NCBI GenBank assembly: GCA_973895155.1
Contig: OZ316891.1
Location: 32,086,008 to 32,127,007, forward strand
Direction of reading: 5' to 3'
DNA from: Marsupella aquatica
Taxonomy: Eukaryota; Plantae; Marchantiophyta
DNA: 41,000 bases
Made by a program: the position numbers and the translations under genes. Position 1 is the stretch's first letter. Each line of letters opens with the position of its first letter. Of the stretch, positions 2,519-30,059 are shown piece after piece. The notes under the pieces are model-generated. The model ran no database searches and had not been told where the DNA came from. It saw only the letters and a program-made list of their open reading frames with translations.

Positions 2519-3629
2519 TGTCACTTGCCTCTCCAACGGTTAATACGTGCAAACCGCACTTTTCTTCGCTTAAACCGTTGGTATCGTATTACGGGGTCGT
2601 GGAGGGACGCTATTTGGATTCTTTTCACACCAGGATGAGTATTTTGGTTTCCGCTCCCGGAAATGTAGGTTTTGATCAAGTCTACCGACTACCCTCACCC
2701 CACAGCTTTTGATCAAGTCCTGCCGACTACCCCACTACACCTTCACTCGGAGTCACCCAAAGAGTGCTGTCACCACCCCTACTCACAAGGCCGACTCAAA
2801 CCAAGCAAGTTTCTTCAAATCATAGAACGGGAGAACACAATTCGGAAAGCGAAAAAGGGAGAAGGAACACACAACAAAAGCCCATCAAGTCAAATGTACA
2901 GATCCATATCTCTTGGGAAAAACGATACACATTGCATGAGTAACCCGGCCTCCTGCCGTCTACTCAACTCCTGCCTCTCCGGACAATGAGTATGGCTCCC
3001 CCTCACTACTCTGAACACGCTTTCAAACTCCTCAGGCTCCACTCTATCCCTCCTTGCTAACTTCACACTGAGTCCCCCTAACTACTTCGGGGCTATCCCC
3101 CTAAATACTGAAAAATCACACCAAAGCACCCCTCACAGGGTCACAACGGTGGCGGCTACCCTAGCGGCGCCGCTAAAACCTTGCACTAAGAGAAATCCTT
3201 AAACTGAAGAGGAGCATGCGGCACACACATGCTGCTAAAACCCTAAACCCAAAACAAGGGGGCCGACGGTGCCTTCGACGGCGCCCCAACAGTACACGTG
3301 AACCCTGAAAGTGAGAGGCACCCCAAAATGGCCGAAACTAGGTGCCCTTCCAAGTGCACACCTGAGCTCACCCCTGGATAGCTCTTCTTTTCCTGCTTCC
3401 GAATCACTAAGTCGCTCCCTCAACGGACTTCAGACGCCTGAGTTATGGCCGTTTCCGTACCGCAAAAACATAAGTTCTCCAGGCCATAACTTGCTCATCC
3501 TGGCTCCGTTTGAGGAGCGCCGCCTCTTGTTGGAATCAGCTCCGCGAGCTCATCCCAACAAGCCCATGAGTGACCCCCCACTAAAATGTTGGAAATCTGG
3601 AGGCCGTACACCCACGTCCGTACGCCTAT

Positions 3630-5486: not shown

Positions 5487-5923
5487 CCATGCATCCCGAA
5501 ATCAATTTCTCAATCACCAATCCCGTCACCCGTGGCAATGTCAATTCCCTGGCCCGAAACAGCCCCCGTAGCCCGATCACTTAAATTCTCTCAATTTCCC
5601 GTCACTACTCCGTGCGGCCGCCACTAATGCCTGGAAGAATGACGCCAGCAAGCCCCACTAATCCACCATGAAAGAGAGAGCTTCAAAAATAATTAGAATC
5701 TGGAGAGAGCTTCCGGCAAGAGAGAGAAGAACCCCGTTTTTGCTTTCGGCAATGAGAGGGTCGTGCAAAAGGAAGAGGGAAAGAAAAAGGAAGGAAAAAA
5801 AAAAAAAAATAGAACCGAAAAAACTCCTGGCGCCTTCGCCATGCGCCCCGGCCCATTTCTCGGGCCTTACCCTTGCGTCCTCCTGCGCGCGGCCCTATGC
5901 AGGGCGCGCGGCCATTCCTCCCG

Positions 5924-6287
5924 GCTCGCGGGAGGCCCTTCAACTCCCCCCCGCTCGCGTGATCCTCCCAGCTCACGGGAGGCCCTTTAACTCCCCCCCG
6001 CTCGCGTGATCCTCCCAGCTCGCGGGAGGCCCTTTAACTCCCCCCCGCTCGCGTGATCCTCCCAGCTCGCGGGAGGCCCTTTAACTCCCCCCCGCTCGCG
6101 TGATCCTCCCAGCTCGCGGGAGGCCCTTTAACTCCCCCCCCCCCGCTCGCTTGCGCTCCTTCAGCTCGCGGAGCCTCATTAATTGCCCGGGCACGCAGCC
6201 CTATGGGCTCGCGAGGCAGCCCCTTCAGCTCGCGGAGCCCCATTAATCGCCCGGGCACGCAGCCCTATGGGCTCGCGAGGCAGCCCC
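5924..6287. repeat. GC-rich tandem arrays in LTR A: ~4.7 x 47 bp then 2 x 64 bp
   Basis: Unit GCTCGCGGGAGGCCCTTTAACTCCCCCCCGCTCGCGTGATCCTCCCA starts at 5924, 5971, 6018, 6065 and 6112. A second unit recurs at 6160 and 6224. Confidence 0.95.
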
Positions 6288-6614
6288 TCTTTCTCTCGGA
6301 CGGCCACTAATGGGACTCGCCCTCCTGAGGAGGGATTTATTTAAAAAAAAACCCCCCCCTCTCCTGACTTTGCAATGGGGGTCTCAACAATAGCTCTTGA
6401 AGCAAAACGGTAAGTCCTATGGGGCTGGTCCTGGCTAGTTTCAAGGTCCCAAAATATTTGCCCACTTAGGTCGCCGCAAATCTTAGAACTATTATGAGAG
6501 AAAGAATATAAAGTCACCTGGGGCATCATCAACCTATAATGACGGAATTAACTAAAAATTAAAAAATGGCTTATTTACATTGACTATTAACAAGGTATCG
6601 GCCTTTGCAACCAG

Positions 6615-13013: not shown

Positions 13014-13073
13014 CCCATTGAGACCTGCATTCCAAACTTACACCAATGTCTCAGAAAGCAATATTTGTAAACA

Positions 13074-13168
13074 TCAACCGTCGCACGATGCGTTGTGGTT
13101 GACGTACAATAACAAAGTAACCAACAAACTTCTCACGTATCAACCGTCGCAAGTTGCGTTGTGGTTGA
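13074..13168. repeat. Twin 29-nt stem-loops in the leader of element A
   Basis: TCAACCGTCGCA-cga/agt-TGCGTTGTGGTTGA at 13074-13102 and 13140-13168. Confidence 0.75.
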
Positions 13169-13230
13169 TAGGTTTGAACTCCCAATAGACGTAGCTCCCC
13201 TCCTTCGTGTCGTCAAACAAGAAGAAGGAT

Positions 13231-13248
13231 TCCCCGGCAGCGGCGCCA
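13231..13248 (-). promoter_or_regulatory. Primer binding site of element A (tRNA-Asp type, Athila-like)
   Basis: Minus strand TGGCGCCGCTGCCGGGGA differs by one base from the Athila-type TGGCGCCGTTGCCGGGGA and lies 20 nt inside the 5' LTR end. Confidence 0.88.
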
Positions 13249-14379
13249 AAAACAAAAGACCACACTTATGTCACTTGCCTCTCCAACGGTTAATACGTGC
13301 AAACCGCACTTTTCTTCGCTTAAACCGTTGGTATCGTATTACGGGGTCGTGGAGGGACGCTATTTGGATTCTTTTCACACCAGGATGAGTATTTTGGTTT
13401 CCGCTCCCGGAAATGTAGGTTTTGATCAAGTCTACCGACTACCCTCACCCCACAGCTTTTGATCAAGTCCTGCCGACTACCCCACTACACCTTCACTCGG
13501 AGTCACCCAAAGAGTGCTGTCACCACCCCTACTCACAAGGCCGACTCAAACCAAGCAAGTTTCTTCAAATCATAGAACGGGAGAACACAATTCGGAAAGC
13601 GAAAAAGGGAGAAGGAACACACAACAAAAGCCCATCAAGTCAAATGTACAGATCCATATCTCTTGGGAAAAACGATACACATTGCATGAGTAACCCGGCC
13701 TCCTGCCGTCTACTCAACTCCTGCCTCTCCGGACAATGAGTATGGCTCCCCCTCACTACTCTGAACACGCTTTCAAACTCCTCAGGCTCCACTCTATCCC
13801 TCCTTGCTAACTTCACACTGAGTCCCCCTAACTACTTCGGGGCTATCCCCCTAAATACTGAAAAATCACACCAAAGCACCCCTCACAGGGTCACAACGGT
13901 GGCGGCTACCCTAGCGGCGCCGCTAAAACCTTGCACTAAGAGAAATCCTTAAACTGAAGAGGAGCATGCGGCACACACATGCTGCTAAAACCCTAAACCC
14001 AAAACAAGGGGGCCGACGGTGCCTTCGACGGCGCCCCAACAGTACACGTGAACCCTGAAAGTGAGAGGCACCCCAAAATGGCCGAAACTAGGTGCCCTTC
14101 CAAGTGCACACCTGAGCTCACCCCTGGATAGCTCTTCTTTTCCTGCTTCCGAATCACTAAGTCGCTCCCTCAACGGACTTCAGACGCCTGAGTTATGGCC
14201 GTTTCCGTACCGCAAAAACATAAGTTCTCCAGGCCATAACTTGCTCATCCTGGCTCCGTTTGAGGAGCGCCGCCTCTTGTTGGAATCAGCTCCGCGAGCT
14301 CATCCCAACAAGCCCATGAGTGACCCCCCACTAAAATGTTGGAAATCTGGAGGCCGTACACCCACGTCCGTACGCCTAT

Positions 14380-16236
14380 CTAATCCTCCTCTTCTTCTTC
14401 GCTCTCGGTGCCCGGACTTGTGCCCCGTGAGTGGTCCTCCTCCTCATCACTCACGGGAGTGAGTGCCACCGTACTTTTCTTCTTCTTCGACGGAGTACTC
14501 TTAGTGCTGCTGCTCCCGCGCTTCCTCAAAGCAGCCAAGGCCTGCCACGCCTTGATGTACCCCTCACCAATTGTGTCCTTCCAGAGGGTAGCCTCTTCTC
14601 CGGACCGCAACTCCAACGGTAGAACTTGCCCCGTGGCCATGGGAGTCCCGGGGGTGACAGACCTGGGTGGCATCCCCGTACTGACCTGAGCCTCCCGTAA
14701 CGATTTCCGTACCTCCCGGAGCTTCTTCTCCAAGCTCTTACTCTTCTCCTGACTCTTCTTGGCTCCATCCAACAAGGGTCCATACTTCCCACTAACCTCC
14801 TTCACCACCATCTCGATAGCTTGGGAGATCACATCCGGGGAAAGTGTGGAGCCAGGTGTGCCGGGACTCTTCCGTTTCCCTAGACTCAGGGCCTCACTTC
14901 TCTTCGCTCGTGTCTCAAAGGCTGCCACCTGACTCCGTAGTGCTCCCACCTGGTTCCTCCACTCCATCACTTCTCCAGAATTTTGCTTCTCTTTGGCCAA
15001 TGCTTGCCTCAACGCTCCTACTTCTTCTGCTTCCTTGGCCTTGGTGGACAAAGCTCCCTTCAAGTTGGTGATCTCTACGTGAGCTGCATTGATGTGCCTG
15101 ACCTTCTCATGAATGGTCTGCTCCTTGGTCTTGATCACCTCCTTCAGTGACAGGATGCTCTGCTCTAACGTCTCTACTTTGACTGTGGCGTGCTTGAGAG
15201 ACTCCCTCAATGCGTGGACTAGCTTGAGTCCCTCGTGGACTCCCTCTCTGAAATCCCGTAGCTCTGCCAAGTAAACATCCGGAATGTTGTATTCCAGAGG
15301 CTGTTTCGGATCTCCCACGAGTGATTCAAGCCACTCCAATGTGCAATCATCCTCCTGGTTCTCTTCTTCTCTATTATCCTCCCCACCAGCAGACAATGAT
15401 TCCTCCGTGAGCTTCCCTAAAACAGTAGTGGCAATACTCCGGATCTCCGTGGTGAGAGATGATCCCGTGTCTTCATGCCCCGGAGAACCAATCAACCCTT
15501 CTGCCCTGGCCAATACAAATGACCCCATCAAATGTACAGCCCCACCTGGTTTCACACTCCCGGGCTCAGCGGCCAATAGCTTCTTCAATCCGTAGCACCA
15601 CCATCCGTACACATGGGCTGGGTAGTTCTTGATGTCCATAGCTACCACGAAATGCTCCTCATTCAGCACTCCGGATTGCACGTTGCCAAGAACCCGTTGA
15701 TGCACCTTGGCCAGGAAGCCCTTATACTCAACATCCTTGACAGCAGAAAGAGGGATGGCGGTGGTGGAGGTAGGATTGGTCACCCAAGTGGCCACCATTT
15801 TCAACGTGAGTTCTCCCCTGATATTCCGAGGTGTGAATGAGAATTTCTGATTCTCAAGAAACAATAGCTTAGCCAACTCCACATGGGGCACTACACGTTT
15901 GAGACATTCAAAGTAGATTCCCTCCGTTCGGAACTCCATCCCGGCCTCAATGTCCCAGCTCTTCCCTGAAGGGATGGTAATCTCCACCTTCATGAATTCT
16001 GTAAGCCCGGTGGCTTGGAAAATGTTCCGACAATCCTCCATCACCTTGGTGGAGGTCTTGGGATAAATTCGACGAAAAATCTTCCTACCCACCGGTGAGG
16101 AACCCGCTGCCAATCCCGTGCTCATCATAACTTCTCTCTCTTCCCTTTCCCGTGTAATCCGAGTCTCCACGTAGTCACGGTAAGCAGCCTTGTATCTCCG
16201 AATGCGTGACGCACTAAACTCTGGTTGATCTAGCAT
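14380..16236 (-). CDS. 618-aa accessory protein, 5' LTR copy
   Basis: Same translation as 3630-5486. Confidence 0.85.
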   Translation of the reverse strand: MLDQPEFSASRIRRYKAAYRDYVETRITREREEREVMMSTGLAAGSSPVGRKIFRRIYPKTSTKVMEDCRNIFQATGLTEFMKVEITIPSGKSWDIEAGMEFRTEGIYFECLKRVVPHVELAKLLFLENQKFSFTPRNIRGELTLKMVATWVTNPTSTTAIPLSAVKDVEYKGFLAKVHQRVLGNVQSGVLNEEHFVVAMDIKNYPAHVYGWWCYGLKKLLAAEPGSVKPGGAVHLMGSFVLARAEGLIGSPGHEDTGSSLTTEIRSIATTVLGKLTEESLSAGGEDNREEENQEDDCTLEWLESLVGDPKQPLEYNIPDVYLAELRDFREGVHEGLKLVHALRESLKHATVKVETLEQSILSLKEVIKTKEQTIHEKVRHINAAHVEITNLKGALSTKAKEAEEVGALRQALAKEKQNSGEVMEWRNQVGALRSQVAAFETRAKRSEALSLGKRKSPGTPGSTLSPDVISQAIEMVVKEVSGKYGPLLDGAKKSQEKSKSLEKKLREVRKSLREAQVSTGMPPRSVTPGTPMATGQVLPLELRSGEEATLWKDTIGEGYIKAWQALAALRKRGSSSTKSTPSKKKKSTVALTPVSDEEEDHSRGTSPGTESEEEEED

Positions 16237-16673
16237 CCATGCATCCCGAAATCAATTTCTCAATCACCAATCCCGTCACCCGTGGCAATGTCAATTCCCT
16301 GGCCCGAAACAGCCCCCGTAGCCCGATCACTTAAATTCTCTCAATTTCCCGTCACTACTCCGTGCGGCCGCCACTAATGCCTGGAAGAATGACGCCAGCA
16401 AGCCCCACTAATCCACCATGAAAGAGAGAGCTTCAAAAATAATTAGAATCTGGAGAGAGCTTCCGGCAAGAGAGAGAAGAACCCCGTTTTTGCTTTCGGC
16501 AATGAGAGGGTCGTGCAAAAGGAAGAGGGAAAGAAAAAGGAAGGAAAAAAAAAAAAAAATAGAACCGAAAAAACTCCTGGCGCCTTCGCCATGCGCCCCG
16601 GCCCATTTCTCGGGCCTTACCCTTGCGTCCTCCTGCGCGCGGCCCTATGCAGGGCGCGCGGCCATTCCTCCCG

Positions 16674-17037
16674 GCTCGCGGGAGGCCCTTCAACTCCCCC
16701 CCGCTCGCGTGATCCTCCCAGCTCGCGGGAGGCCCTTTAACTCCCCCCCGCTCGCGTGATCCTCCCAGCTCGCGGGAGGCCCTTTAACTCCCCCCCGCTC
16801 GCGTGATCCTCCCAGCTCGCGGGAGGCCCTTTAACTCCCCCCCGCTCGCGTGATCCTCCCAGCTCGCGGGAGGCCCTTTAACTCCCCCCCCCCCGCTCGC
16901 TTGCGCTCCTTCAGCTCGCGGAGCCTCATTAATTGCCCGGGCACGCAGCCCTATGGGCTCGCGAGGCAGCCCCTTCAGCTCGCGGAGCCCCATTAATCGC
17001 CCGGGCACGCAGCCCTATGGGCTCGCGAGGCAGCCCC
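16674..17037. repeat. 47-bp and 64-bp tandem arrays, 5' LTR copy
   Basis: Same arrays as 5924-6287, shifted by 10750. Confidence 0.95.
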
Positions 17038-17400
17038 TCTTTCTCTCGGACGGCCACTAATGGGACTCGCCCTCCTGAGGAGGGATTTATTTAAAAAAAA
17101 ACCCCCCCCTCTCCTGACTTTGCAATGGGGGTCTCAACAATAGCTCTTGAAGCAAAACGGTAAGTCCTATGGGGCTGGTCCTGGCTAGTTTCAAGGTCCC
17201 AAAATATTTGCCCACTTAGGTCGCCGCAAATCTTAGAACTATTATGAGAGAAAGAATATAAAGTCACCTGGGGCATCATCAACCTATAATGACGGAATTA
17301 ACTAAAAATTAAAAAATGGCTTATTTACATTGACTATTAACAAGGTATCGGCCTTTGCAACCAGTTATGTGTGACTTCCCGTGACGGGGTACCCGTCACA

Positions 17401-18368
17401 CACAACCACAGAAAATAATTGAGTCTACGCCAGCCAAAGGAACTCCAGCAACTACGACGGAGACAGCACAAACTACTGCAACAACAACCATGGATAGAGC
17501 GGCAGGGAAGCGAAAGTAGAGGGAGAAGAAGCTTCTGGTTGAGAAACCTACTTCAGTTGAGAAGAAGATCACGGCTCCAGCCGAGAAGAAGAAGCTTCCA
17601 GCCGAGAAGAAGAAGCTTCCAGCCGAGAAGAAGTCGAGGGAGAAGAAGAAACAAAAAACCGACACCGGAGTTGTGAATTCAACTCCTATAGATTTTTCAT
17701 TACATGCTGAAGATGAGGGTGATAGGCCACATGCTCCAGAGGAGAAAGACGTCTTAGAAGGGAATGAAGTTCTTCAACAAATGGAGCAGTACTATACTTT
17801 TGGGATAAACGAAATTTTTCTGATCCCAGTTGAAAGTATTTTTGCCGCACCAGCGAGACTATGCTATCGGATGATGAATTTTGATCATGTGCAAGACATT
17901 GCTGATTCCATGATCAAAACACCTGGGCATGAGCCACATGTCGCTGATTTGATTCCTTTTAACGTCGAGCGAAGAAAGGTACTCCACTTTGAGAATACGG
18001 AGTCGGACCGGAAGGATTTTTTGGCCGGAGTGAAAAAGGGCGAGGTCCAATTTCTAGCCGTTAGTGGTCAGCACTCTGCGAGAGCTGCGAGATGGATTCG
18101 TGATTGGGCAACGAAGGATGCCAAGCTCACCCAGTTGGCCAAGAAGTTAGAATTCAGGAAATCCAGAATATTGTCTGATCGCACACCGTCTTCAATTCTT
18201 GTTGAGCACTCCATGAGATCAAACGCCATCAATAGCACGATGGTGTTTCAATCTTGCTTTAAAGATACAGTTGTCCATGCGAGGCGGCAGTTTGTTGAAT
18301 GTGGAAATCCAGACAAACCAAAACATGGCGACAACAAAACAAATGCTCAAGACAACCAAAAATTTCAG
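17401..18368 (+). CDS. Exon with Lys-rich repeats and a ParB/sulfiredoxin-like (GQH-type) domain
   Basis: The frame of ORF 17673 is open back to the LTR junction except TAG 17517. It contains PAEKKKL repeats and IPVESI...YRMMNFDHVQDIADSM...FLAVSGQHSARAA, and ends at donor CAG|GTAAGA. Confidence 0.7.
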
Positions 18369-18607
18369 GTAAGAAATGTGATTACTTTGTATGCATTTCT
18401 CTACCATAGAGAGTAATTCTATTTTGGATTCGGATGGTCTCAGTCCGACACGATTTGTCAAAGAGTATTGGAACTTTTGGAATGTTTAGTACGAGTTTTC
18501 TTTTTGATTGAGACCATCCGAATCCAATACTATTATCGCACATTAGAATCCTTTTTTTCCAACCCTTGCGTTGGGGATAACTGACTAGCTTTCCTTTTGG
18601 ATTGTAG
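18369..18607 (+). other. Phase-0 GT-AG intron containing a 22-bp inverted repeat
   Basis: GTAAGA donor, CTGAC branch-like site at 18581, pyrimidine tract and TGTAG acceptor. Joins NQKFQ|DWLAL in frame. Confidence 0.8.
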
Positions 18608-20910
18608 GATTGGTTGGCTCTGGCAAGAATGACTATGGGCAGGAAGGACTTGCGAAATGTATACTGGCTACTTTTTGCGGACAACGATCTTTTTGAGTTG
18701 TGGCGGTTAGTCTGTGAGATGTGGTTGCATGGGAAACTTCCTGATGGAGCTGGGATGGAAGGAAATAACAAGTCCGAAAAAGCAATTACCGTTGCCATGT
18801 TTCGTCCCTTTGATGGTGAGTTGATCTCACAGAAAGACATCACAAAAATCCTGACACAAGTGAAGTCAGGAAAGGCATTGCTGAAGAAAGATGCCACAAA
18901 TAAATCTGACATACCCTCAATAGAGGAGCTTGCGAAGGATGTGAAAAAAGTGAGGAAGCTCAAGTCTCTCATTGAGGAGTACTACTTCGGCAAGGATCCA
19001 AGGAATTTCCCTTCGGATACCGATTGGAAGAAAGTTGTAGAGGTTCTGCCATTGTTGAGTGTTGACGCAGAATTCAGTAGATGCAGAAGAGCGGCTGGTG
19101 AAGTTTTTTTGTCAAATTTGTTGAAGCCAAATCATACCAGGGAGAGTGCAATCTTGCCAATAGCTCTGGTGATGCGCCTTGATGACATTTATTGCCAGAA
19201 GTTTGGCGGAGGGACACATTCTCGGAGCCAACCGTGGGTCACGTTCTTTAGTGACAATCTAATGAAAACAGTTGATCCACCAGCAATAGAAGAATCATCT
19301 CCAACGTGCTCACTTGCCATTGTTGACTTCAGTCGAGATCACCAGAAGCTGTGGACGGAAGCAGAAGTTTTGGTCTTTCTGCAATACATTGTGGAGCTAC
19401 CACAAAATCTTACAATCGTTGTAGCCATAACTGTTCATCCGGGGCCTCTTGCAATGAATGTCCTAAGCTCACTTCGAAAATTGGGACAAGAGAAATCTCT
19501 CACCATTCACATTGAGTATGGGAGTTATTCTCGAGAGGATCAACCGCACCCGCTTGATTCGTGTTGGGGAGGCGGAATTGAAGAAGTTATATTCGCAGGA
19601 ATTTCTCGAGATGAAAATGTGAATTGGAATGATGTTTTCAAACCCAATCACCCAAAGCCAAAATTCTTTTTTGGTTCAAAAGATACTGATTTTGAGGTCA
19701 CCAAGATTGACACTGGGAAGGCAAAGGTTGACACAGACGACGTGTCAAAACCTGAAGATCTAAAAATGATGCTGACCCCAGAAGAGGTGACCAAGGTTTT
19801 GCACATGGCCCCTCGATTTGAGATAGTTGGTGCTCGTGGTGGTTGGGTGAATCCACATGCCAAACCCACGCGGATGATACAGAGGATTATTGAATCCTTG
19901 TCAGAAGCTAGAGACTTGATTCTTGATTTTTTCTCGGGTGGTCAAGTGATGAAGACAGCATTCTTGGTGCAACGCGAATGCTTTGTTTATTGTGACTCTC
20001 AAGATGAGAGACACTTTGTGGAAGCGTATGCTTCATTCCTTTGCGAGAGGGTCCCCTCAATCAAGGAAAATTGGGATCCTCGTGGTGGGAGTTCTAGGCA
20101 TTGGAAACCCACTATTGCGGATGTTTCTACCGAACATGAATCAGCTGATAATTCCAAAGAAGTGGGCGCTAAGTCAGTCAAAGATGATGGGGCATCAGAG
20201 GTGGCGTATGCAAAGAATTTGGATGACCGTGTAGGTCAAAGTGAAAGCATAGAACCCTACGATGTTGATGATAACGTTGGTCTTGCACCACGCCCTTCAT
20301 CACGTGCAGATGACGTCCCTTTGGAACCCTATGAAGTTGAGGTTGATGACAACTTGGACAAGGATGGTCTCAATCCAAATGTGGTGCAACGAGAAACGGA
20401 CGGAATTGGTGATCCGATTGACATTGATACATTTGAAAATCGTTCGTCAACCAATTTGGTCGCGGATGGTGGAGACAGACAGGTCAATTCGAATGAAGCT
20501 GACACCCAAAATTTGATTCCCGGGACGGCTGTCGAAGTACGTGAGATTCCCATGACCCCAGAAGCCCGTGCATCAGCGACTGTTGACAACCAGGCAGGTG
20601 CTTCAATTTGTCCTGACACACTCTTTTCAGCTTCTGATGACAAATTGGTTTTTGTTCGTTCACACTCGGGAAGTCCAGTTGTCCTTCCTCTCTCAAAGAA
20701 AAAAGGGAATAGAGTTGGATCAACCGGATGGAGGTCACTTGAACGTGATGCACGATGTTATGTGTGGAAAAGTGGGCCAAATAGAGGCCAAGAAGTTTCA
20801 TTGGATGCTGCTCCATCGATTCTTAACAGGAAGGAGTATAAGAGAGGAGAATTGGGATTGATAACTCCTGTTTGGACGTCACCTTATTGGGTAGAACAAA
20901 GTACTTCAGA
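18608..20910 (+). CDS. Exon with a beta-class N6/N4 DNA-methyltransferase-like domain and an acidic linker, interrupted by element C
   Basis: NPHAKPTRMIQRIIESLSEARDLILDFFSGG (19850-19942) fits HPxxKP..LI...S..GD.VLDPFxGSG. SLAIVDFSR (~19310-19336) sits at the expected DPPY position. Confidence 0.7.
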
Positions 20911-22301
20911 TGTGGTATGGGTGTCCCTGCAATTTTTTCTGGAAACTTGTTTATTTTTAGCATATCACAAGATTTACTTACACTTTAGACACCTTCCGGC
21001 CAACATTTACTTGTTCTGGACACTTATAGAAATATTTGACATCTCCGGCTTTCCTGACGATTCCTAGTGTACTTTGCCCGACGCTGTGACCAGCGCCCGT
21101 TTCTTTTACTCAAGACGCTGCGGAAGCGTCCAACCTCCTCATGACGCTTTTGGCAGCGCCCGACCGCCACCAAGACTCTATGAGGATTTCGACCGACGCT
21201 GTGGAAAGCGTCAGCTTCAACACACGACGTTGTGAGCAGCGTCCACCCTAGTATTGACGCTGTGAGCAGTGTGAGCAGCGTCCGTTGGTTTTACTTAAGA
21301 CGCTTCTAGCAGCGTCCAGATTCTCCCGACGCTTCTAGCAGCGTCCGCTCAACACTTAGTTTTTGAAGTAGATTACTAGTAAAGTAGTATTCTACCACCC
21401 TTGTTGAAGTACTTATGTTGTGCTTCTCCCTTGTTTAGTTTTAAGCTTGGAAAGGCACGACTGTTCTTACCTCCTCCATTTTAGGATTCCAACACTTATA
21501 AGACAGAGTAGAATGCTCATTTGAAGTAGAGAGAAATAGAGTTAATACTGTATTCAGAATTGAGTCTTCTGAATAGTTTTCTCCTCCTTCCATTGTAACA
21601 AGGCATGCTGTGAGTGTTTTGTATGGAAGTAAAGCTATATTGATTGAAGTTAAGATTGAATTCAAGAGATTCCTGTGGTGATTGAATTCAGTTGCAGATT
21701 TCTGAAACTCGTATTGAATTCACTGCTAGGCTTGCTTGCAGAGTCGGGATTCGCTAGCCAATTCAAGAATAGTTAATGATAAATGAGAAGTAAATTCTGA
21801 TTCTCAGAGTAGTTAGTACTGTTGCTTTGATTCTGGAATATGGTTTAGAGTTTGACTGAATTGTGTATCGCTGATGTCAAACCATGTTGACGGCATTTTA
21901 AATCATATCATTCATTTGCAATCAGAAAGCTTCTGCTTCATCAGATTGAGAATTCCATTATCATTAACCTTTGTGTTTTGAAGAGTGAGATGGATGAATT
22001 ATGAGATAGATTTCATGTCTATACTGAGCCCAAATCCTTTCTGAAGGAGTGGCAGTAGCAGCTTGTAGTCTCTAAATCCTTACTCATTTCTTCTCTAATT
22101 CATAAATCAGAAGTTCAGTTACTTTGTTGTTTGTTTATTCGATTTTTTTTATTGAGAAGTGAAGTCAACATAGAGCTCAAGACTCTAAATCACTCGGAGT
22201 GATAAAAGTTATACAATTCATTCTGAAATCTGTTCTTAAAGGGATCGAAACCCTGGTTTTAGGTGAGAAGAGTCACTTTTGATACTTAGCACTATACGAC
22301 A
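20911..22301 (+). repeat. 5' LTR of element C
   Basis: TGTGGTATGG...TACGACA, a direct repeat of 26044-27434. I saw three substitutions between the copies. Confidence 0.96.
21080..21345. repeat. Array of 8 GACGCT-N5/6-AGCGTC palindromic boxes in LTR C (also 26213-26478)
   Basis: Boxes start at 21080, 21114, 21143, 21195, 21226, 21256, 21299 and 21328. Confidence 0.9.
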
Positions 22302-22307
22302 TCTTTT

Positions 22308-22325
22308 TGGCGCCGCTGCCGGGGA
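22308..22325 (+). promoter_or_regulatory. Primer binding site of element C (tRNA-Asp type)
   Basis: TGGCGCCGCTGCCGGGGA after a 6-nt spacer from the LTR, identical to the PBS of A. Confidence 0.9.
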
Positions 22326-23296
22326 ACGAATTTAAGATTGAATTGACGTACAGGCAGTGTATGCCAGAAGGAGCTAGACGGGAGAGGAATTCACGTTCTA
22401 CTATAATTGTGAAGATGCGTCATCACTCCAGTTAAAAAGATGAAGAGCTTCCATTTCGAGGTGATGCCGTACTCTATCCAAAGCGCCCCGGAAGCTCTCT
22501 TAAGAGTATTGGAAAAATTTGTGGTGCCAAACTTAAGAGAAGAAACCGCCCTCCCACCAGAAAAGGCCTCACAGAGAGGAGCTGTTGCTCGTCAAGTTGC
22601 TTTGGAGATAGTCGAAGACACCAAAGACACTTTGAGTGACAAGTGAAGTTATTCTAACATTGCTCGGGACGTATGATTTGTAAAATTGTCCAACCATCCT
22701 GGTTCGTATGACCGATGCCACCTATCCGATCTTTGGGAACATTAAGAATTAGGAATTTGAGGAATCGTTATGTTAATTCTTGGGTTCTGAGCCTGAGAGG
22801 GAGGAATGGCATACATTGGTTAACTATCACCTGGTGGGAAGATGAAAGTTTGCATTTAGTAATATTAAGGCTGAATGGTAGGATCACACAGGAGAGATAT
22901 TTAGTCATTTCCATTCGGGAGTTAGCGGAAAGAATCATGCACCAGGAATTGCGTAGAAGATTAGGAAGGAGTTAGACGTCTGATTAGTAGGATGGCCTAG
23001 TGTAGCGTACCATGTGGTAAAGAAATTTCAGGGTGAAGGAAGTCGGAGATTATGGGGAACGCCCGGTTCCAGTAATCGCCACCGTAAAGGAGATAAGGAA
23101 GGACGCCGCGAAGAGCGTCCAATGCGATTCGTCCCAGAAGATTCCGCAAGTCAGGACGCTTCGAGTAGCGTCCGATCCCAGTGGACGCTGTGAGCAGCGT
23201 CCGGTGGAATCTGTGACGAACCAACGTGCGCAACGCTTCTGGTGTGCCTTTTCGCGTCTCAACCTGAAGGACGCACCAGAGAAAACGAGGTTTTAG

Positions 23297-25477
23297 AATC
23301 TCGGCTGGTCACTGAAGGGAAGTATTAGCTACGGGATAGCAAGGGGGAGGAATCATGCAAGGGATGTAGAACAGACGCAGTCTATCAATTGGACGAAGGT
23401 TTTGCACCGAGTAATTCATACTCAGGTCAAAAATTTTCGTAGCAGGCTGAAAACGGGGAAAATAAGGTGTACCTACTTGGCCCCTTATTTAGCTCACATT
23501 TACCATAAGTATGACTGTCTGATTGTCTTGGAAAAAGATTTTTATCGCAACAATCAGAGAGCATCTACCGGTGAAGCAAATTATATGCCTGAAGTACGAG
23601 AAGTCCGAGCCAATTCCACAGTGGTAGAGCTATGTGCAATACTCGACTGTGAGGAACCTGAACTGGTGGGTGAAGTTCGGAAATTGAAAGAGACAAGAGC
23701 ATCAGCTGAAGGGAGTGACGATCCGATTCTTCACCAACCAAGAGAGGCTCAAGTTGCCGAAGATGTTCCTTCAGCAATGCCAACAGGGTTGGAGCATTCT
23801 ATGTCACCTCGACTCTCGTGTTCACCTTGTGCTGCCGAGCCTATTTATGATGTTGATCAGGATAATTCTGCTTCTCGGATGAATGTTGAAGATGAGGTGA
23901 GGGTGGATGAAGAAGGTTTTTCAGGGGAACCTCTTCAACATTCTACTGCTGAGGACGAGTATGATGGATTTACTTCTACCCCTGTTTTGGTTCCCATAGA
24001 GGCAAATAGTGATGCTTTGCAGGCTTTACAGGAGTATGATTCGTCCGACTCTCTTAGTTCTAGCCCAAATATAGGTGAAATCCCTCTGGTCCAGGAGTCA
24101 GAAATATTAAGCTCAGAAATTGTGAAGCTGGTTAAAGTTGATTCGGAGGATGCAATTGTGGATATAGACGAAGTAGGTGAACCAGTGACTTCTCCCCAAT
24201 CTGTCGCAAGATACCCTGCCTGGTCTACACCTGGTTCACTCATATCGATTCCTTTGGATATAACTAAGGAATTAGATGAGGCAATAGCCGCGATAGGAGC
24301 TCCTTCATTTCCGCCTGTAAAATGGGTTTCTCCTGAAGATGAGTTGATTGAAGGAGGCTCTGCTGGTTTTCCGAGTCGCAATCAGGTATCTGGTAATATG
24401 GGTATATCTGTACCCATATTGGTACCCGAGACACCCGCTTCGACAACCAGCTCAGCACCAGTTTCATTGGCTACAAACGAGGATAAAAACATTCGGGAGG
24501 AGTTTTCAGTGACGTATACTCGAAAATCTTGGAAACGGTTGCGCCATGCTATCAGTCGACAGATCTTTCCTGAAGCATCTTCCCAGGATTTTGAACAGGG
24601 AGAAGCACCTATCGGAACAGACGAGCTACCCCTTCCTGTACTTTTGGCAGATCGAACTAACCAGGAAGTCTCTTTACCTAGCGATAATTTTAAAGAAGAA
24701 CTTCCTGTTTTAGTACCAATGCATCCCACTGCAGATCAACCAGCTACTGTTGCAAGAGAAGAATTTGAACCACTGGAGCCCGAACCTTCTGCTCCTTCGT
24801 CTCCTGTTACATTGCCAATTCGACCAGTTAAGGAGTCAGTGATTCCTTCCGCTATGCCAGATGTAATTTTCCGTTGGATAGGAGCACCAAGTGATGGAGA
24901 AGAAGACGAAGACCCTCGCATTATCAGAGTACCTCCTCGACTTCGGCATACAGTGGATTTGCCACCCCGAAATCCTATCCCTAATTTGGCTTCAATTCAC
25001 AGGTGGGAGAAGAAACATTTTCGAGTAGCTTTTCGACATCTGGAGATGGAGAGCATTTTGCAGCAGCAGCAGATTTTGCCAATGACATCCCATCCGAGGA
25101 TTCGTAGTTTGATTCGCACATATGAACCTGGGAAGGCGGTTCCTCCCATTGATAAGGACAGACGACATAAGTTTTCGGAGTTCGAAATTTGGTGTTGGGT
25201 GTATATGCTTCGACGAGCTCAAGCTCCATTTCCGCCCCTTGTGCCGGAAATTCCATGGCCCTATCCATACTATGTTTGGGTTTGTCCTGGTGGGTTTGCT
25301 ATTCCAATTAAATATGAGAAGAAGCTTGTTAAGCTAAGGGAGCAGTTGATTACAAAACAATGTATGCTACCGGCTTCCCAAGGGTTCAAGTCGCTTAGGT
25401 GTTTAGCGTTCCTACCTATTATTCCTTCTTATCCGGATGTGATTATTCAAGGTGTTTTATCTAGGACACAGATTTGA
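23297..25477 (+). CDS. Element C accessory ORF (>=691 aa, acidic/Pro-rich), 5' part probably decayed
   Basis: ORF 23402-25477 has no ATG at its start. The frame is open from 23297 and continues through TAG 23294-23296 into ORF 23033. Contains the motif INWTKVLH...YLAPYLAHIY. Confidence 0.65.
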   Translation, partial: NLGWSLKGSISYGIARGRNHARDVEQTQSINWTKVLHRVIHTQVKNFRSRLKTGKIRCTYLAPYLAHIYHKYDCLIVLEKDFYRNNQRASTGEANYMPEVREVRANSTVVELCAILDCEEPELVGEVRKLKETRASAEGSDDPILHQPREAQVAEDVPSAMPTGLEHSMSPRLSCSPCAAEPIYDVDQDNSASRMNVEDEVRVDEEGFSGEPLQHSTAEDEYDGFTSTPVLVPIEANSDALQALQEYDSSDSLSSSPNIGEIPLVQESEILSSEIVKLVKVDSEDAIVDIDEVGEPVTSPQSVARYPAWSTPGSLISIPLDITKELDEAIAAIGAPSFPPVKWVSPEDELIEGGSAGFPSRNQVSGNMGISVPILVPETPASTTSSAPVSLATNEDKNIREEFSVTYTRKSWKRLRHAISRQIFPEASSQDFEQGEAPIGTDELPLPVLLADRTNQEVSLPSDNFKEELPVLVPMHPTADQPATVAREEFEPLEPEPSAPSSPVTLPIRPVKESVIPSAMPDVIFRWIGAPSDGEEDEDPRIIRVPPRLRHTVDLPPRNPIPNLASIHRWEKKHFRVAFRHLEMESILQQQQILPMTSHPRIRSLIRTYEPGKAVPPIDKDRRHKFSEFEIWCWVYMLRRAQAPFPPLVPEIPWPYPYYVWVCPGGFAIPIKYEKKLVKLREQLITKQCMLPASQGFKSLRCLAFLPIIPSYPDVIIQGVLSRTQI

Positions 25478-25489
25478 AGGACACCATTT

Positions 25490-25966
25490 ATGAGAGATAT
25501 CAAACGGTGTTGTCATTTATATGTATATAAGCCGTTACTTTTGCAGCATCCTGCAATTGTTTCCTTCTTTCTCCTTCGAATTGATATTTATCTGCTCATG
25601 TGGGACATCAAAGCTACTATGGATTGTTGGAATTCTTTACCCCGTGCTTTCCAACATTCCTTTGAAGGCAAGATCAAACTGGGAGGACATGCTATTCAAC
25701 ACTTTGTTATTGATCCAGGCTCTCGAATTAATTTCCTCTCCCACAGACTGTGCCAGCAATTTGTTCATCAAGAAGTACAACCGATATCTGCTCAGATATC
25801 AATCGATGGACGAATCATTAATCTTTGGGGAAGAGTTAAAGGAGTCCCAATACAGATCGGAGAAGAATTCCATGACCTCGATTTTTATATTCTGGATTCG
25901 GATATCTCCCAACTCCCGTCAATGATTTTGAGCACTACTTGGATTATTAAGCCAGAATATTATTAA
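25490..25966 (+). CDS. Retroviral-type aspartic-protease-like ORF (158 aa)
   Basis: FVIDPGSRINFLS...IDGR...GRVKGVPIQIG...DFYILD...MILSTTWI follows the retropepsin pattern with DPG in place of D[ST]G. Confidence 0.7.
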   Translation: MRDIKRCCHLYVYKPLLLQHPAIVSFFLLRIDIYLLMWDIKATMDCWNSLPRAFQHSFEGKIKLGGHAIQHFVIDPGSRINFLSHRLCQQFVHQEVQPISAQISIDGRIINLWGRVKGVPIQIGEEFHDLDFYILDSDISQLPSMILSTTWIIKPEYY

Positions 25967-26028
25967 TGAAGAACATGTCACTCGCTTCTGATTCAATTCG
26001 GTCATGTCTTGTGGGGACACGGCGAAAT

Positions 26029-26043
26029 TTAAGTGGAGGGCTA
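26029..26043 (+). promoter_or_regulatory. Polypurine tract of element C
   Basis: TTAAGTGGAGGGCTA directly before the 3' LTR TG. Confidence 0.85.
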
Positions 26044-27434
26044 TGTGGTATGGGTGTCCCTGCAATTTTTTCTGGAAACTTGTTTATTTTTAGCATATCA
26101 CAAGATTTACTTACACTTTAGACACCTTCCGGCCAACATTTACTTGTTCTGGACACTTATAGAAATATTTGACATCTCCGGCTTTCCTGACGATTCCTAG
26201 TGTACTTTGCCCGACGCTGTGACCAGCGCCCGTTTCTTTTACTCAAGACGCTGCGGAAGCGTCCAACCTCCTCATGACGCTTTTGGCAGCGCCCGACCGC
26301 CACCAAGACTCTATGAGGATTTCGACCGACGCTGTGGAAAGCGTCAGCTTCAACACACGACGCTGTGAGCAGCGTCCACCCTAGTATTGACGCTGTGAGC
26401 AGTGTGAGCAGCGTCCGTTGGTTTTACTTAAGACGCTTCTAGCAGCGTCCAGATTCTCCCGACGCTTCTAGCAGCATCCGCTCAACACTTAGTTTTTGAA
26501 GTAGATTACTAGTAAAGTAGTATTCTACCACCCTTGTTGAAGTACTTATGCTGTGCTTCTCCCTTGTTTAGTTTTAAGCTTGGAAAGGCACGACTGTTCT
26601 TACCTCCTCCATTTTAGGATTCCAACACTTATAAGACAGAGTAGAATGCTCATTTGAAGTAGAGAGAAATAGAGTTAATACTGTATTCAGAATTGAGTCT
26701 TCTGAATAGTTTTCTCCTCCTTCCATTGTAACAAGGCATGCTGTGAGTGTTTTGTATGGAAGTAAAGCTATATTGATTGAAGTTAAGATTGAATTCAAGA
26801 GATTCCTGTGGTGATTGAATTCAGTTGCAGATTTCTGAAACTCGTATTGAATTCACTGCTAGGCTTGCTTGCAGAGTCGGGATTCGCTAGCCAATTCAAG
26901 AATAGTTAATGATAAATGAGAAGTAAATTCTGATTCTCAGAGTAGTTAGTACTGTTGCTTTGATTCTGGAATATGGTTTAGAGTTTGACTGAATTGTGTA
27001 TCGCTGATGTCAAACCATGTTGACGGCATTTTAAATCATATCATTCATTTGCAATCAGAAAGCTTCTGCTTCATCAGATTGAGAATTCCATTATCATTAA
27101 CCTTTGTGTTTTGAAGAGTGAGATGGATGAATTATGAGATAGATTTCATGTCTATACTGAGCCCAAATCCTTTCTGAAGGAGTGGCAGTAGCAGCTTGTA
27201 GTCTCTAAATCCTTACTCATTTCTTCTCTAATTCATAAATCAGAAGTTCAGTTACTTTGTTGTTTGTTTATTCGATTTTTTTTATTGAGAAGTGAAGTCA
27301 ACATAGAGCTCAAGACTCTAAATCACTCGGAGTGATAAAAGTTATACAATTCATTCTGAAATCTGTTCTTAAAGGGATCGAAACCCTGGTTTTAGGTGAG
27401 AAGAGTCACTTTTGATACTTAGCACTATACGACA
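26044..27434 (+). repeat. 3' LTR of element C
   Basis: Direct repeat of 20911-22301, followed by TSD TCAGA. Confidence 0.96.
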
Positions 27435-27573
27435 TCAGATGTCAATTTTGAAATCCAAGAGGAGCTGGGTGTTGACATTATTGATGAATACGGATCTCTT
27501 TTTTCAGACTGAGATCAAACCGTCTGACTTTCCATTTTTTCATACCAATCTAAAATACTTCTCGGTCTCACAG

Positions 27574-27633
27574 AATGCGGTCAGCAATTAGAGCCTCGAT
27601 ATCCACCTACGCTCTTTGGGGCTTCTAAAAATG
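27574..27633 (+). CDS. Putative 60-nt internal exon (ECGQQLEPRYPPTLFGASKN)
   Basis: Flanked by TCTCACAG| and |GTATGT, phase 1 on both sides, compatible with both neighbours. Confidence 0.5.
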
Positions 27634-27748
27634 GTATGTAGGTTTTCTTTGTTGTTAGTCATTGTCTTGTATTTTTGGACTGAGACAATCTCAGTCCAAA
27701 GTTCAAATTTGGTTTTCTTTCTAAGAGTTGTATTTGTTGCACTTGCAG

Positions 27749-28785
27749 AATCGAGACCTTGTCCCATCAAGCGGAAGTTGCTGATTTTGGATCTTAACAA
27801 AATACTTTGGGATTCACTTGAATTCCAAAGCAAGGGCAAATCCAGAAACATTGTGACCCCAAATGGAGTGCATTGGGATAGATCAAATGGAACTAGTCGC
27901 ATGTATACACAGAGGCCAGGGTTCCATGAGTTTCTAAAGTTGGTTTTTGACCGGTTTGACGTTGCAATTTGGACATGTGCTGGGATGCCGCGGACAGTGA
28001 AAATGTTGAACATGATGTTCACTGTTGAGGAGCGGTTGAAACTGAAGTTTGTATTCACACAGGTGGAAGCCTTTGACACAGGCATTCAAAGGCGTGACAT
28101 TACAAATGGAAAGGCAAATGTGCTATTGAAGGATTTTCGGGTGGTATGGAGTGCATTTGGAAATCTATATGATGAAACCAACACACTCCTTGTGGATGAC
28201 TCCCCCTTGAAGGCATTTGCCAACCCAGACATGACCGGACTATTTCCAGTGCCCTACACGCATGCCAATCGTGGAGACAATTTTCTTCTAACAATTCTTT
28301 GGCCATGTCTTGAGAAACTGTCACATGCAAGTGACATTCGTTGTTATCTTCTCCTAAACTCTCCAAAGTGGTCTCTATTGCACATTAAGAGAGACAAGGC
28401 AAAAAATGAGATTACTTATGATCAACTTAGTAAGAGATGTGCAGCAAAAATTTGGAAGTCACAGTATAGGCATAGTGTGTTGGACCTCAATAGCAATGAG
28501 ATTCCTTGGGCTGTGAAGCACCGTATATGTAGCTTACGTCCTGAGGTGGAACTTGACGATGCACTTGTCACCTCACTTGCTAGATCATTTGTAGGACGGG
28601 AATATTCAGGTCTTTATAGAGAAAATCCCAGACACTTTTTGCGGGAGATTATAGCAGTTAGGAACAACACCACCAAATTTCATCTCCCTGAAGATAAAGG
28701 GAGTTGCAACCGTGACATTAGGGTAGATAGTAAAGGAGACAAGGGCACGTGCTCAAATAAATATTGTAAGGAGCACTTTGTTTAG
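27749..28785 (+). CDS. Terminal exon: FCP1/SCP (NIF) HAD-superfamily phosphatase-like domain
   Basis: KLLILDLNKIL...RPGFHEFLKLVFDRFDVAIWT...LLKD...NTLLVDDSP. The acceptor TTGCAG ends at 27748. Confidence 0.85.
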
Positions 28786-29044
28786 AGATCTGACTCATGT
28801 TAAGCCCATTAGATAGTAAAAATGGGTGCCAGCCCTGGATATTCATTGTAAGTTTGGACACAATTGTATATAATTATTTCACACATTATCAATCAATGGT
28901 CCTTGCTTAGGCTTCTTTGTGCGTAAATGTTTTTACAAGTATGATCTCTATCCCATGGTTCTTTGTGAACTAATAAGTAATATAATACTATTATAATTAA
29001 TATAAGATAATATATTAATATAATACTAATAAGATTTGGCCTAT

Positions 29045-29123
29045 AAAGTGTACATTTAGGTATCAAAAAGTGTACATTTGGGCTTCTTAAAGTGTACATT
29101 TGGGGACATAAAAGTGTACATTT
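29045..29123. repeat. Four AAAGTGTACATTT boxes at exact 22-bp period
   Basis: Copies at 29045, 29067, 29089 and 29111, with variable 9-bp spacers. Confidence 0.93.
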
Positions 29124-29176
29124 CAGGACTGATTTGTGAACAAAAGAAAATACACTTTTAATGAATAGGCTGATAT

Positions 29177-30059
29177 ATGGCCACCTCAGCCCCGGGTAAT
29201 GTCACCCCCGCCCCAGAGGAGGCAACCCCGACTACGCGGACTACTGTCCCTCGGACAAACCCCGAGCCGGAAGCCCCGACTAATACTCCGCAACCGCCCC
29301 CTGTGGAAATTCCACCGCCTCCTTCCGTTGAGCCTCCGCTACCTGCAGTACAACCACCCCCAATCCCTCCACCACCTGAAGAAACCTTCCCCTCCCCAGC
29401 GCTGACTACGGAGGAGCTCATTGCCCCTGCCGAGGAACCACCGGTACCCGAGAGGATGGAGGACTACCAAGTAGCCCCGGGGACCATGGCCTACGACCTG
29501 GTCCAGAAGTTTAGCCAGACTATGTCTGGGGAGTTGGCGACATACATCGGACAACAAGTCTCGGCGTACTTTCAGCCAGCCTTCTTCATGTTAGAGCACC
29601 AACCACGGATCGTCAGCCGCTTGGAAGAAGAACTCATGGCGAAGGGGAATGAGATCGGGCGTCTCCAGATGCTGGTAGAGCACCTCGAGGAGGAGGCAAC
29701 GACCCGCCGCGAGGATTTAGTCCGCACTGTCGAACAGAGGGACGGACTAACCCAGGAGTTAAGCGGAGCGCAGGCCCAACTCAAGAAGCTGGACGACACC
29801 ATGCTTCAATTACGCTCAGAATCTTCGGCTCGGGTTACCAGCCTGACTGACCTCAACAAACAATTCCTGCAGGCAGCACAGCAGGTGGCTAGTCTCTCCG
29901 CCGAACGAGATAAATTGCTAGCGCAAGACCAGGTCCATCGCGATGCCATCGACCAGCTCAACTTGGAGGTGGCGCGGCTCCAGACTGAAGCCGACGAAGC
30001 TGCAAACGAGGCGGAGGAAGCATTACGGGACAACAAGGCTTTGCAGGACCGCGTCACCC
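29177..30059 (+). pseudogene. Pro-rich + coiled-coil ORF fragment (D), probably another retroelement accessory ORF, interrupted by element B
   Basis: GC-rich ORF starting abruptly after AT-rich DNA. Its last ~38 aa are read-through into LTR B, which starts at 30060. Confidence 0.55.

What the first reader, a model, noticed from the sequence alone, without database searches (positions are those of the whole stretch)
17401..28785. Hidden spliced gene fusing ParB/Srx-like, DNA amino-methyltransferase-like and FCP1-type phosphatase domains
Seen: removing element C with one TSD, plus introns 18369-18607, 27469-27573 and 27634-27748, leaves one stop-free frame of 1425 aa from 17520 to 28785, with splice phases 0, 1, 1 all compatible. 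Known: ParB-N + N6_N4_Mtase fusions are typical of phages and bacterial mobile elements, eukaryotic members of this MTase family are rare (bdelloid N4CMT, Marchantia DN4MT1), and FCP1/NIF domains are eukaryotic HAD phosphatases. Inference: a prokaryote-derived DNA-binding/modification module has gained introns and been coupled to a phosphatase-like domain, perhaps as transposon cargo acting on chromatin or transcription. I know no described protein with this architecture. The weakest link is the donor G|GTGTTG at 27469. Without it the MTase part stops at TGA 27510.
Basis: partly seen in the sequence, partly recalled or inferred. Interest (0 to 1): 0.9.

Follow-up and report, generated by a model that had tools for sequence, protein, structure and literature searches.

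The report
Dead liverwort ParB–pseudomethylase–pseudophosphatase transposon cargo
This is a broken copy of a multi-copy gene, whose named relatives come from liverworts, that splices a bacterial-type ParB-like domain to a DNA-methylase fold lacking its usual catalytic motif and is followed by a phosphatase-like exon; it likely rides on a large transposon and would bind palindromes inside its own DNA, much as has been proposed for similar genes of algal transposons.

Summary
The geometry is right: removing LTR element C plus one TSD and the three introns gives 1425 stop-free codons. The three domains are real: ParB/Srx-like, beta-class amino-methyltransferase fold (Z 18 to CcrM), and NIF/FCP1. 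Intron 1 is conserved in a 33%-identical homolog, and copies without element C exist.

The donor at 27469 lies inside a conserved coding motif, and 33 of 34 homologs reaching that motif stop within 21 residues, as this copy does at TGA 27510. The NIF exon still needs a phase-1 upstream donor. Four Riccia gene models join MTase and NIF, so an alternatively spliced fusion from an earlier donor stays plausible but unproven.

Both enzyme folds look dead: no (D/N/S)PP(Y/F/W) in 163 homologs, and no DxDx(T/V). This copy is a pseudogene, with a 5' LTR truncation, a TAG and insertion C. The family is dispersed in Calypogeia and Riccia. A 25-bp palindrome recurs four times inside the gene.

ParB+MTase accessory genes are already described from algal giant transposons. 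The liverwort range, the dead enzymes and the phosphatase link are new. No transposase was seen.

The parts
13269..17400 (-). LTR of Ty3 element B; cuts off the 5' coding region of the gene; its flanks carry no matching TSD
   Evidence: homologs have a longer N-terminus
17403..17519 (+). Remnant of the upstream coding linker, ending in an in-frame TAG (17517-17519); ATG at 17490
17520..18368 (+). Exon with Lys-rich linker and ParB/Srx-like domain (about 17800-18190; motif AVSGQHS)
   Evidence: fold from homolog P0185 (39% identical here): PadC Z 7.0, KorB Z 5.7
18369..18607 (+). Intron 1, phase 0; holds two copies of the 25-bp palindrome (18424-18448, 18503-18527)
18608..20910 (+). Exon 2 up to insertion C: helical region, beta-class MTase fold (about 19235-20060), unconserved linker, first part of the C-terminal domain
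19325..19336 (+). Degenerate catalytic motif IV position (DFSR in place of D/S-P-P-Y); assignment by position is inferred
19925..19945 (+). Conserved SAM-binding motif I-like loop DFFSGGQ
20354..20378 (.). Third copy of the 25-bp palindrome, in the unconserved linker
20595..20603 (+). Candidate phase-1 alternative donor CAG|GTGCTT at the conserved (E/Q/K)AGA motif; untested
20911..27434 (+). Element C: recent LTR element with no RT/integrase match, inserted in the C-terminal domain; TSD TCAGA
27440..27512 (+). End of exon 2: conserved C-terminal motif (LGx..IDEYGS) and likely true stop TGA 27510-27512
27574..27633 (+). Possible 60-nt symmetric phase-1 exon; no homolog support found
27634..27748 (+). 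Likely intron ending in a phase-1 acceptor; holds the perfect palindrome TTGGACTGAGA-N3-TCTCAGTCCAA (27675-27699)
27749..28785 (+). NIF/FCP1-like HAD-fold exon (domain about 27775-28341) with degenerate motif I (DLNKIL) and a C-terminal Cys cluster (28705-28776)
29045..29123 (.). Four exact copies of AAAGTGTACATTT at 22-bp spacing, plus a partial inverted copy near 29151-29160; subterminal-repeat-like
29160..29174 (.). Edge of the module against an unrelated repeat that begins at 29175; whether it is a true terminus is unknown
   Evidence: loose ends in 3 of 4 runs

Best explanation
This is a broken copy of a dispersed multi-copy gene, with named relatives in liverworts, that splices a ParB-like domain to a beta-class methyltransferase fold lacking the usual catalytic motif and likely ends at TGA 27510, followed by a phosphatase-like exon that is likely added only by alternative splicing from an earlier donor; it is likely accessory cargo of a large DNA transposon. 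Proposed working (inferred): in intact copies the ParB-like and helical region would bind the 25-bp palindromes inside the element. The methyltransferase fold and the HAD fold would act as non-catalytic binding surfaces (DNA or SAM for the first, phospho-peptides such as the RNA polymerase II tail for the second). The protein would thus mark the element's own copies for transcription or shield them from silencing. Shown: splicing of ParB-like to MTase-like parts, the folds, loss of both catalytic motifs, dispersal, the palindromes, and the damage to this copy. Inferred: transposon host, DNA binding, alternative splicing and function.
For: Intron 1 conserved. Natural 1009-aa single ORF P0185 holds ParB-like + MTase-like parts and ends 4 residues after EYGS, without NIF. 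Fold matches: CcrM Z 18.0, rmsd 3.6, 221 aligned; PadC Z 7.0, rmsd 3.2, 97 aligned. The top viral match is a 494-aa phage ParB/Srx protein aligned over 700 columns, E 1.4e-8. Motif IV position reads D(F/L)(S/T/A/G)R in 47 aligned rows, and 0 of 163 proteins hold (D/N/S)PP(Y/F/W). NIF motif I reads DLNK, DLEK, EVEK or DVEG in all 7 sequences that show it. 33 of 34 homologs reaching the last motif stop within 21 residues. Three NIF homolog clusters begin with unconserved, intron-like text ending at a phase-1-type xA-G or xT-G. Four Riccia models join MTase and NIF, and none of them hits the C-terminal-domain HMM. 15 Riccia models lie on 6 chromosome-size contigs and 6 Calypogeia models on 5. Three further palindrome copies have at most 5 mismatches, against a shuffle mean of 0.04 and a maximum of 1 in 200. 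Precedent: Sola1-1_Ec32 and Plavaka accessory genes.
Against: No transposase, TIR pair or TSD of a host element is in the window; the left end is lost to element B. No protein found holds all three domains. Most homologs are unspliced ORF calls on contigs and cannot show splicing. The Riccia joins are gene models from a mixed transcript and ab initio pipeline, and they join at different places. The ParB Z-scores are under 8, the range the tool calls middling, and there is no Pfam ParB hit (best: DndB E 0.052 in 1 of 7). The motif-IV Asp (45 of 47) and motif I (Gly in 56 of 56) are strongly kept, which allows an unusual activity. ATG 27631 is in frame with NIF through the unspliced intron. The palindrome was not found in L001.
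Confidence: 0.5

Rival explanations
1. One reading: one 1425-aa protein made by splicing at G|GTGTTG 27469.
For: The frame stays open and the phases fit. Three close paralog reads also have GGT at this Gly. NIF needs a phase-1 donor.
Against: The donor lies in the middle of a motif conserved down to about 30% identity. 6 of 29 homologs cannot have this donor. It ranks 22 of 42. A paralog indel at 27476 is 3 bp and frame-preserving, whereas one at 27524, past the stop, is 1 bp (one event each).
Confidence: 0.1
2. The NIF exon is a separate, co-travelling gene, started at ATG 27631 (no intron 3) or at its own 5' exon.
For: ATG 27631 opens a 384-codon frame through NIF. One X3 contig has a 3-bp insertion at 27644. 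P0185 and the spliced Calypogeia model P0008 end without NIF.
Against: That N-terminus is T-rich, has intron signals and is not conserved in homologs. Only 236 bp separate the stop from the NIF exon. No ATG in 27440-27630 can feed either acceptor. Riccia models join the two parts.
Confidence: 0.35
3. The MTase fold is an active enzyme with a non-canonical motif IV that methylates the element's own DNA.
For: The Asp at motif IV, the Lys of NPxxKP and motif I are kept across deep subfamilies. Active eukaryotic relatives of this fold exist (N4CMT, DN4MT1).
Against: No PP(Y/F/W) in 163 proteins. The N4CMT SPPY-to-APPA mutant loses activity (PMC8885841). Inactive MTase domains in transposons are precedented (DIRS1; PMC4738411).
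Confidence: 0.15
4. The gene is a host gene family or an endogenous-virus remnant, not DNA-transposon cargo.
For: No transposase was seen. Giant-virus MTases are among the fold matches. The family is old and intron-bearing.
Against: No relative in viral contigs, phage records or prokaryote genomes. Many divergent, often broken, dispersed copies in several deep subfamilies. Repeat array at the 3' edge.
Confidence: 0.2

Closest known systems
ParB-like + N4C/N6A MTase accessory protein of Ectocarpus Sola1-1_Ec32 (PMC12477816; passages read)
   Same: ParB-like domain and amino-MTase domain in one eukaryotic protein of about 1100 aa; proposed to bind its own transposon
   Different: Brown alga; MTase is predicted to be active; transposase is present; no phosphatase-like part is mentioned. 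Direct homology was not tested.
Plavaka accessory genes PAG2 (PF01555 + SET) and PAG3 (ParB-like + 2OG oxygenase) of red algae (bioRxiv 10.1101/2025.02.11.637652; passages and section 8 read)
   Same: Same two prokaryote-type domains as cargo of giant DNA transposons, with inverted-repeat arrays beside the ParB-like gene
   Different: Domains lie on separate genes with other partners; no NIF; host element is defined there
Phage ParB-N + N6_N4 MTase fusions and beta-class MTases CcrM, M.RsrI, M.PvuII
   Same: Domain order and folds
   Different: Spliced; about 250-aa helical insert; catalytic motif lost; extra N- and C-terminal domains; 10-14% identity
Bdelloid N4CMT and Marchantia DN4MT1 (PMC8885841; bioRxiv 10.1101/2021.02.12.428880; passages read)
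   Same: Permuted PF01555 fold in a eukaryote; N4CMT is matched at Z 15.6
   Different: Those keep SPPY/TSPPY, are active host genes in low copy, and lack ParB
FCP1/SCP/UBLCP1 HAD phosphatases (PF03031)
   Same: Full-length Pfam match, E 3e-15; UBLCP1 E 7e-10
   Different: DxDx(T/V) is lost; added helical tail and Cys cluster

Membership tests
Beta-class N4C/N6A DNA methyltransferases (PF01555) | Permuted Rossmann fold, catalytic region before the SAM-binding region | tested here: met
   Model of homolog P0185: Z 14-18 to 11 beta-class chains; Foldseek E 9e-7
Beta-class N4C/N6A DNA methyltransferases (PF01555) | Catalytic motif IV (D/N/S)PP(Y/F/W) | tested here: not met
   DFSR in the window; 0 of 163 homologs carry the motif
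Beta-class N4C/N6A DNA methyltransferases (PF01555) | SAM-binding motif I (canonical FxGxG, recalled) | tested here: inconclusive
   DFFSGG(Q/V) is highly conserved and aligns to M.RsrI DFFAGSG, but it is variant
Beta-class N4C/N6A DNA methyltransferases (PF01555) | Methyl transfer to DNA | not testable with these tools
   Needs an assay
ParB/Srx (ParB-CTPase fold) | ParB-N fold | tested here: met
   PadC Z 7.0, KorB 5.7, Pnob8 ParB-N 5.4, SerK 5.1, Srx 4.6 on residues about 70-220 of P0185; phage ParB fusions top the viral list. Z is moderate.
ParB/Srx (ParB-CTPase fold) | Arg-rich nucleotide-binding box (GxxR / GERR, recalled) | tested here: not met
   SGQHS or SGAHS in place of GxRR in the 14 rows aligned, which were picked by that motif
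ParB/Srx (ParB-CTPase fold) | Binding to a palindromic site | not testable with these tools
   Candidate sites found; binding untested
FCP1/SCP HAD phosphatases (PF03031) | Pfam match above the cut-off | tested here: met
   56.7 bits against 21.8
FCP1/SCP HAD phosphatases (PF03031) | DxDx(T/V) catalytic motif (recalled) | tested here: not met
   DLNKIL in the window; 7 of 7 sequences lack it; motif IV DD is kept only in the window, 1 of 9
Giant DNA transposons with accessory genes (Sola, EnSpm/Plavaka, KDZ) | Transposase gene, terminal inverted repeats, TSD | tested here: inconclusive
   None in the window; the left end is lost; no genome is held
Giant DNA transposons with accessory genes (Sola, EnSpm/Plavaka, KDZ) | Dispersed multi-copy distribution | tested here: met
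   Overlapping divergent contigs in each of 4 runs; Riccia and Calypogeia models on 6 and 5 contigs

The most novel reading that the evidence does not exclude
Giant liverwort transposons carry a self-targeting triple pseudo-enzyme. A phage-derived ParB clamp loads on palindromes planted in the element's own introns and carries a dead methyltransferase. Alternative splicing swaps its tail for a captured dead Pol II-CTD-phosphatase domain. The result is an anti-silencing or transcription-recruiting system independent of VANDAL, kept in both simple-bodied leafy and complex thalloid liverworts.
Probability: 0.2. Interest if true: 0.8.

Novelty: new variant of a known kind. Interest (0 to 1): 0.48.

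Why it matters
ParB-like/methylase accessory genes have been proposed to let algal giant transposons bind and mark their own DNA, but the papers read offer this as a proposal. This family extends the idea to land plants related to the model Marchantia. It shows that the module persists after losing its catalytic motif, adds a phosphatase-like partner, and supplies a concrete candidate binding site. That makes the self-binding hypothesis directly testable. The copy in this window is itself dead.

Tried and rejected
No genome is held, so element ends and the transposase could not be sought. No RNA holder was listed; this says nothing on expression. The model of exon 1 alone was poor (pLDDT 38.7) and gave nothing in Foldseek or VIA. 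Alignment A3, used for the good model, had the 7 exon-1-only rows misplaced over the MTase region, so the ParB part rests on about 8 rows; the ParB motif counts were discarded and redone. The window row in the tree was out of frame and was redone. No relatives were found in metagenome contigs with the single query, viral contigs (47, 48), prokaryote genomes (62) or phage records (73); one with the alignment (29). The Atlas gave no usable hit for the N-terminal domain (103). Pfam gave nothing for the C-terminal domain in 12 proteins. The 10-nt pattern was drawn from the sites themselves, so its chance estimate is not used; one search is. A Helitron-like reading of the 29174 edge rests on recalled end motifs and does not fit the empty-site read; it was dropped. 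An alternative donor at 20598 ties for first of 42, but the G-A dipeptide after it fits protein-level conservation as well; it is kept as a lead only (an AG[A/G/S] motif in 12 of 20 scored rows; 11 rows were missed by the pattern). Literature searches listed no paper whose title or abstract start describes a liverwort ParB-MTase or a ParB/MTase-NIF combination (108: 0 papers); subscription papers and bioRxiv supplements were not seen, and Iyer et al. 2011 (ref. 50 of PMC12477816) was not read.
Full report
1. Setting. The window is a nest of LTR retrotransposons. Positions 17401-29174 stand out by lower GC and reversed skew. The closest named homologs are Calypogeia fissa models, 58% identical in exon 1, then Riccia sorocarpa. 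The source is therefore likely a liverwort (inference). No genome is held.

2. Geometry. Element C (20911-27434) has 1391-bp LTRs differing at 3 sites and the TSD TCAGA. With one TSD and the three proposed introns removed, 17520-28785 is 1425 codons plus stop. Copies without C exist. Loose ends at 20913 in 2 of 4 runs continue like the sequence after C, and one X1 contig spans 27439-28748 with 32 letters left over that do not lie on the LTR. The copy has two further lesions. There is an in-frame TAG at 17517-17519. Element B (LTRs 4132 bp, 1 mismatch, flanks GTAAG and CACAA, so no TSD) cuts the frame at 17400. All 6 exon-1 homologs extend further upstream, and 5 of them share a conserved N-terminal domain missing here. 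This copy is a pseudogene.

3. ParB-like plus MTase-like fusion: shown. L001 (33% identical) has a GT..AG intron at the same codon and phase as intron 1. Calypogeia models P0008 and P0039 read across it. P0185 is a natural 1009-aa ORF holding both parts. By strict motifs, 4 proteins hold both parts. A model of P0185 (mean pLDDT 71) matches beta-class MTases (CcrM Z 18.0, rmsd 3.6, 221 aligned). Its N-terminal part matches ParB-fold proteins (PadC Z 7.0, rmsd 3.2, 97 aligned; KorB 5.7; Pnob8 ParB-N 5.4; SerK 5.1), which fill 4 of the 6 ranks right after the MTases. Among viral models the best match is a phage ParB/Srx protein aligned over both domains (E 1.4e-8). The ParB scores are moderate, and Pfam gives no ParB hit.

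4. The enzymes look dead. At the end of the strand where motif IV is expected (placement inferred from the model and the aligned ranges), 47 rows read mostly D(F/L)(S/T/A/G)R. None of 163 proteins has (D/N/S)PP(Y/F/W). Motif I is kept as DFFSGG(Q/V) in most of 56 rows. N4CMT needs SPPY (PMC8885841, passages), and DN4MT1 has TSPPY (bioRxiv 10.1101/2021.02.12.428880, passages). The NIF domain is real (E 3e-15; UBLCP1 E 7e-10), but motif I is DLNK, DLEK, EVEK or DVEG in 7 of 7, and the motif-IV DD survives in 1 of 9. A Cys cluster at the C-terminus is shared by the window and the 5 close homologs.

5. The junction at 27469 fails. The exon-2 profile found 234 proteins, of which the best 150 were listed. 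An HMM of the C-terminal 95 residues of 25 homologs, without the window, hits 37 of the stored proteins. 34 of them reach the last motif, and 33 of these end within 21 residues of E(Y/F/H)G(S/T) (29 tabulated: median 5). P0160 reads on into unconserved text, and none continues into NIF. P0159, a Riccia model not hit by this HMM, has an internal DEFGS followed by about 110 residues. The HMM matches the window's 27441-27509 across the proposed donor (E 1.9e-8). Six of 29 lack the Gly needed for G|GT. On a crude consensus count the site ranks 22 of 42. Most of these homologs are unspliced ORF calls and cannot show introns, but the conserved motif shows that 27469-27500 is coding.

6. How NIF may be expressed. 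The acceptor at 27748 is phase 1. Three NIF homolog clusters start with unconserved, intron-like text ending in xA-G or xT-G a few residues before (I/L)KRKLL, the signature of a phase-1 acceptor (inference). No ATG in 27440-27630 can feed it, but ATG 27631 is in frame if intron 3 is not spliced. Four Riccia models put NIF after the MTase fold: P0052 and P0135 (both Pfam families), P0111 (NIF by Pfam, MTase by profile) and P0063 (start of NIF only). Three of them fall in one subfamily of the tree (P0135 was not in it), and none has the C-terminal domain. These models come from a mixed transcript and ab initio pipeline (PMC11735767, passages). A candidate donor CAG|GT at 20598 lies at a conserved AGA motif just before the C-terminal domain. 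Three ORF calls begin with intron-like text ending at that place, so it is a phase-1 boundary in part of the family. My odds: alternative fusion about 0.45 (of which about 0.1 via 27469), separate gene 0.35, other 0.2. No protein with all three domains was found.

7. Element-like features. In each of 4 runs, 97-1499 contigs were laid on 3.8 kb at identities from under 90% to over 99%, overlapping at the same places. That shows many divergent copies, though not their number. Of the models looked up, 15 Riccia models lie on 6 contigs and 6 Calypogeia models on 5, in several deep subfamilies. The perfect palindrome at 27675-27699 has three more copies with at most 5 of 22 mismatches, at 18424, 18503 and 20354. 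All lie in introns or the linker of this gene, against a mean of 0.04 and a maximum of 1 in 200 shuffles. It was not found in L001. A second array, four copies of AAAGTGTACATTT, lies at 29045-29123, just inside an edge at 29174/29175 seen in 3 of 4 runs. No transposase is in the window.

8. Comparison. A 1104-aa ParB-like plus N4C/N6A MTase protein is described on Ectocarpus Sola1-1_Ec32 and proposed to bind and modify its own element (PMC12477816, passages). Red algal Plavaka elements carry PF01555+SET and ParB+2OG genes with inverted-repeat arrays (bioRxiv 10.1101/2025.02.11.637652, section 8). Iyer et al. describe ParB-HTH-fused MTases and inactive MTases of DIRS1 elements (PMC4738411, passages). 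The gene therefore works like these accessory genes by inference, but it fails the catalytic-motif tests for both enzyme families. Searches listed nothing on a liverwort family or a NIF link. Earlier scan notes pointed to the Ectocarpus paper and to palindromes in introns; both leads were checked here, and they are not independent support.

9. Verdict. A real, ancient, dispersed liverwort gene family, seen here as a dead copy. It is a new variant of a recently described kind. Interest 0.48.

Noticed in passing
window 2519-17400: Ty3 element B has 4132-bp LTRs (1 mismatch), each holding a 623-codon coiled-coil ORF and a 47-bp tandem array; its two flanks come from different loci (no TSD), which suggests ectopic recombination or a misjoin.
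   Followed up: partly
window 20911-27434: Element C is a recent LTR element with a TGGCGCC primer site but no RT or integrase match; it carries a 726-codon ORF without a Pfam match and a protease-like remnant.
   Followed up: partly
P0002, P0004, P0005, P0006 (N-terminal ~200 aa): A conserved N-terminal domain of the family, lost from this copy, has no Pfam or Atlas match.
   Followed up: partly
window 20700-20910 + 27440-27509: A small C-terminal domain (Y.W..GP.KG ... EYGS), confidently modelled in P0185 (about 940-985), has no Pfam match; it was not fold-searched alone.
   Followed up: partly
window 27488-27507: The codons of IDEYGSLFS also read like a branch point, pyrimidine tract and CAG acceptor; splicing to it would stay in frame and meet TGA at once.
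   Followed up: partly
window 27505-27529: A degenerate, one-base-shorter version of the palindrome overlaps the stop codon; it is not counted.
   Followed up: no
window 29175-30059: Start of a 333-codon coiled-coil ORF of another repeat, interrupted at 30060 by a further LTR element.
   Followed up: no
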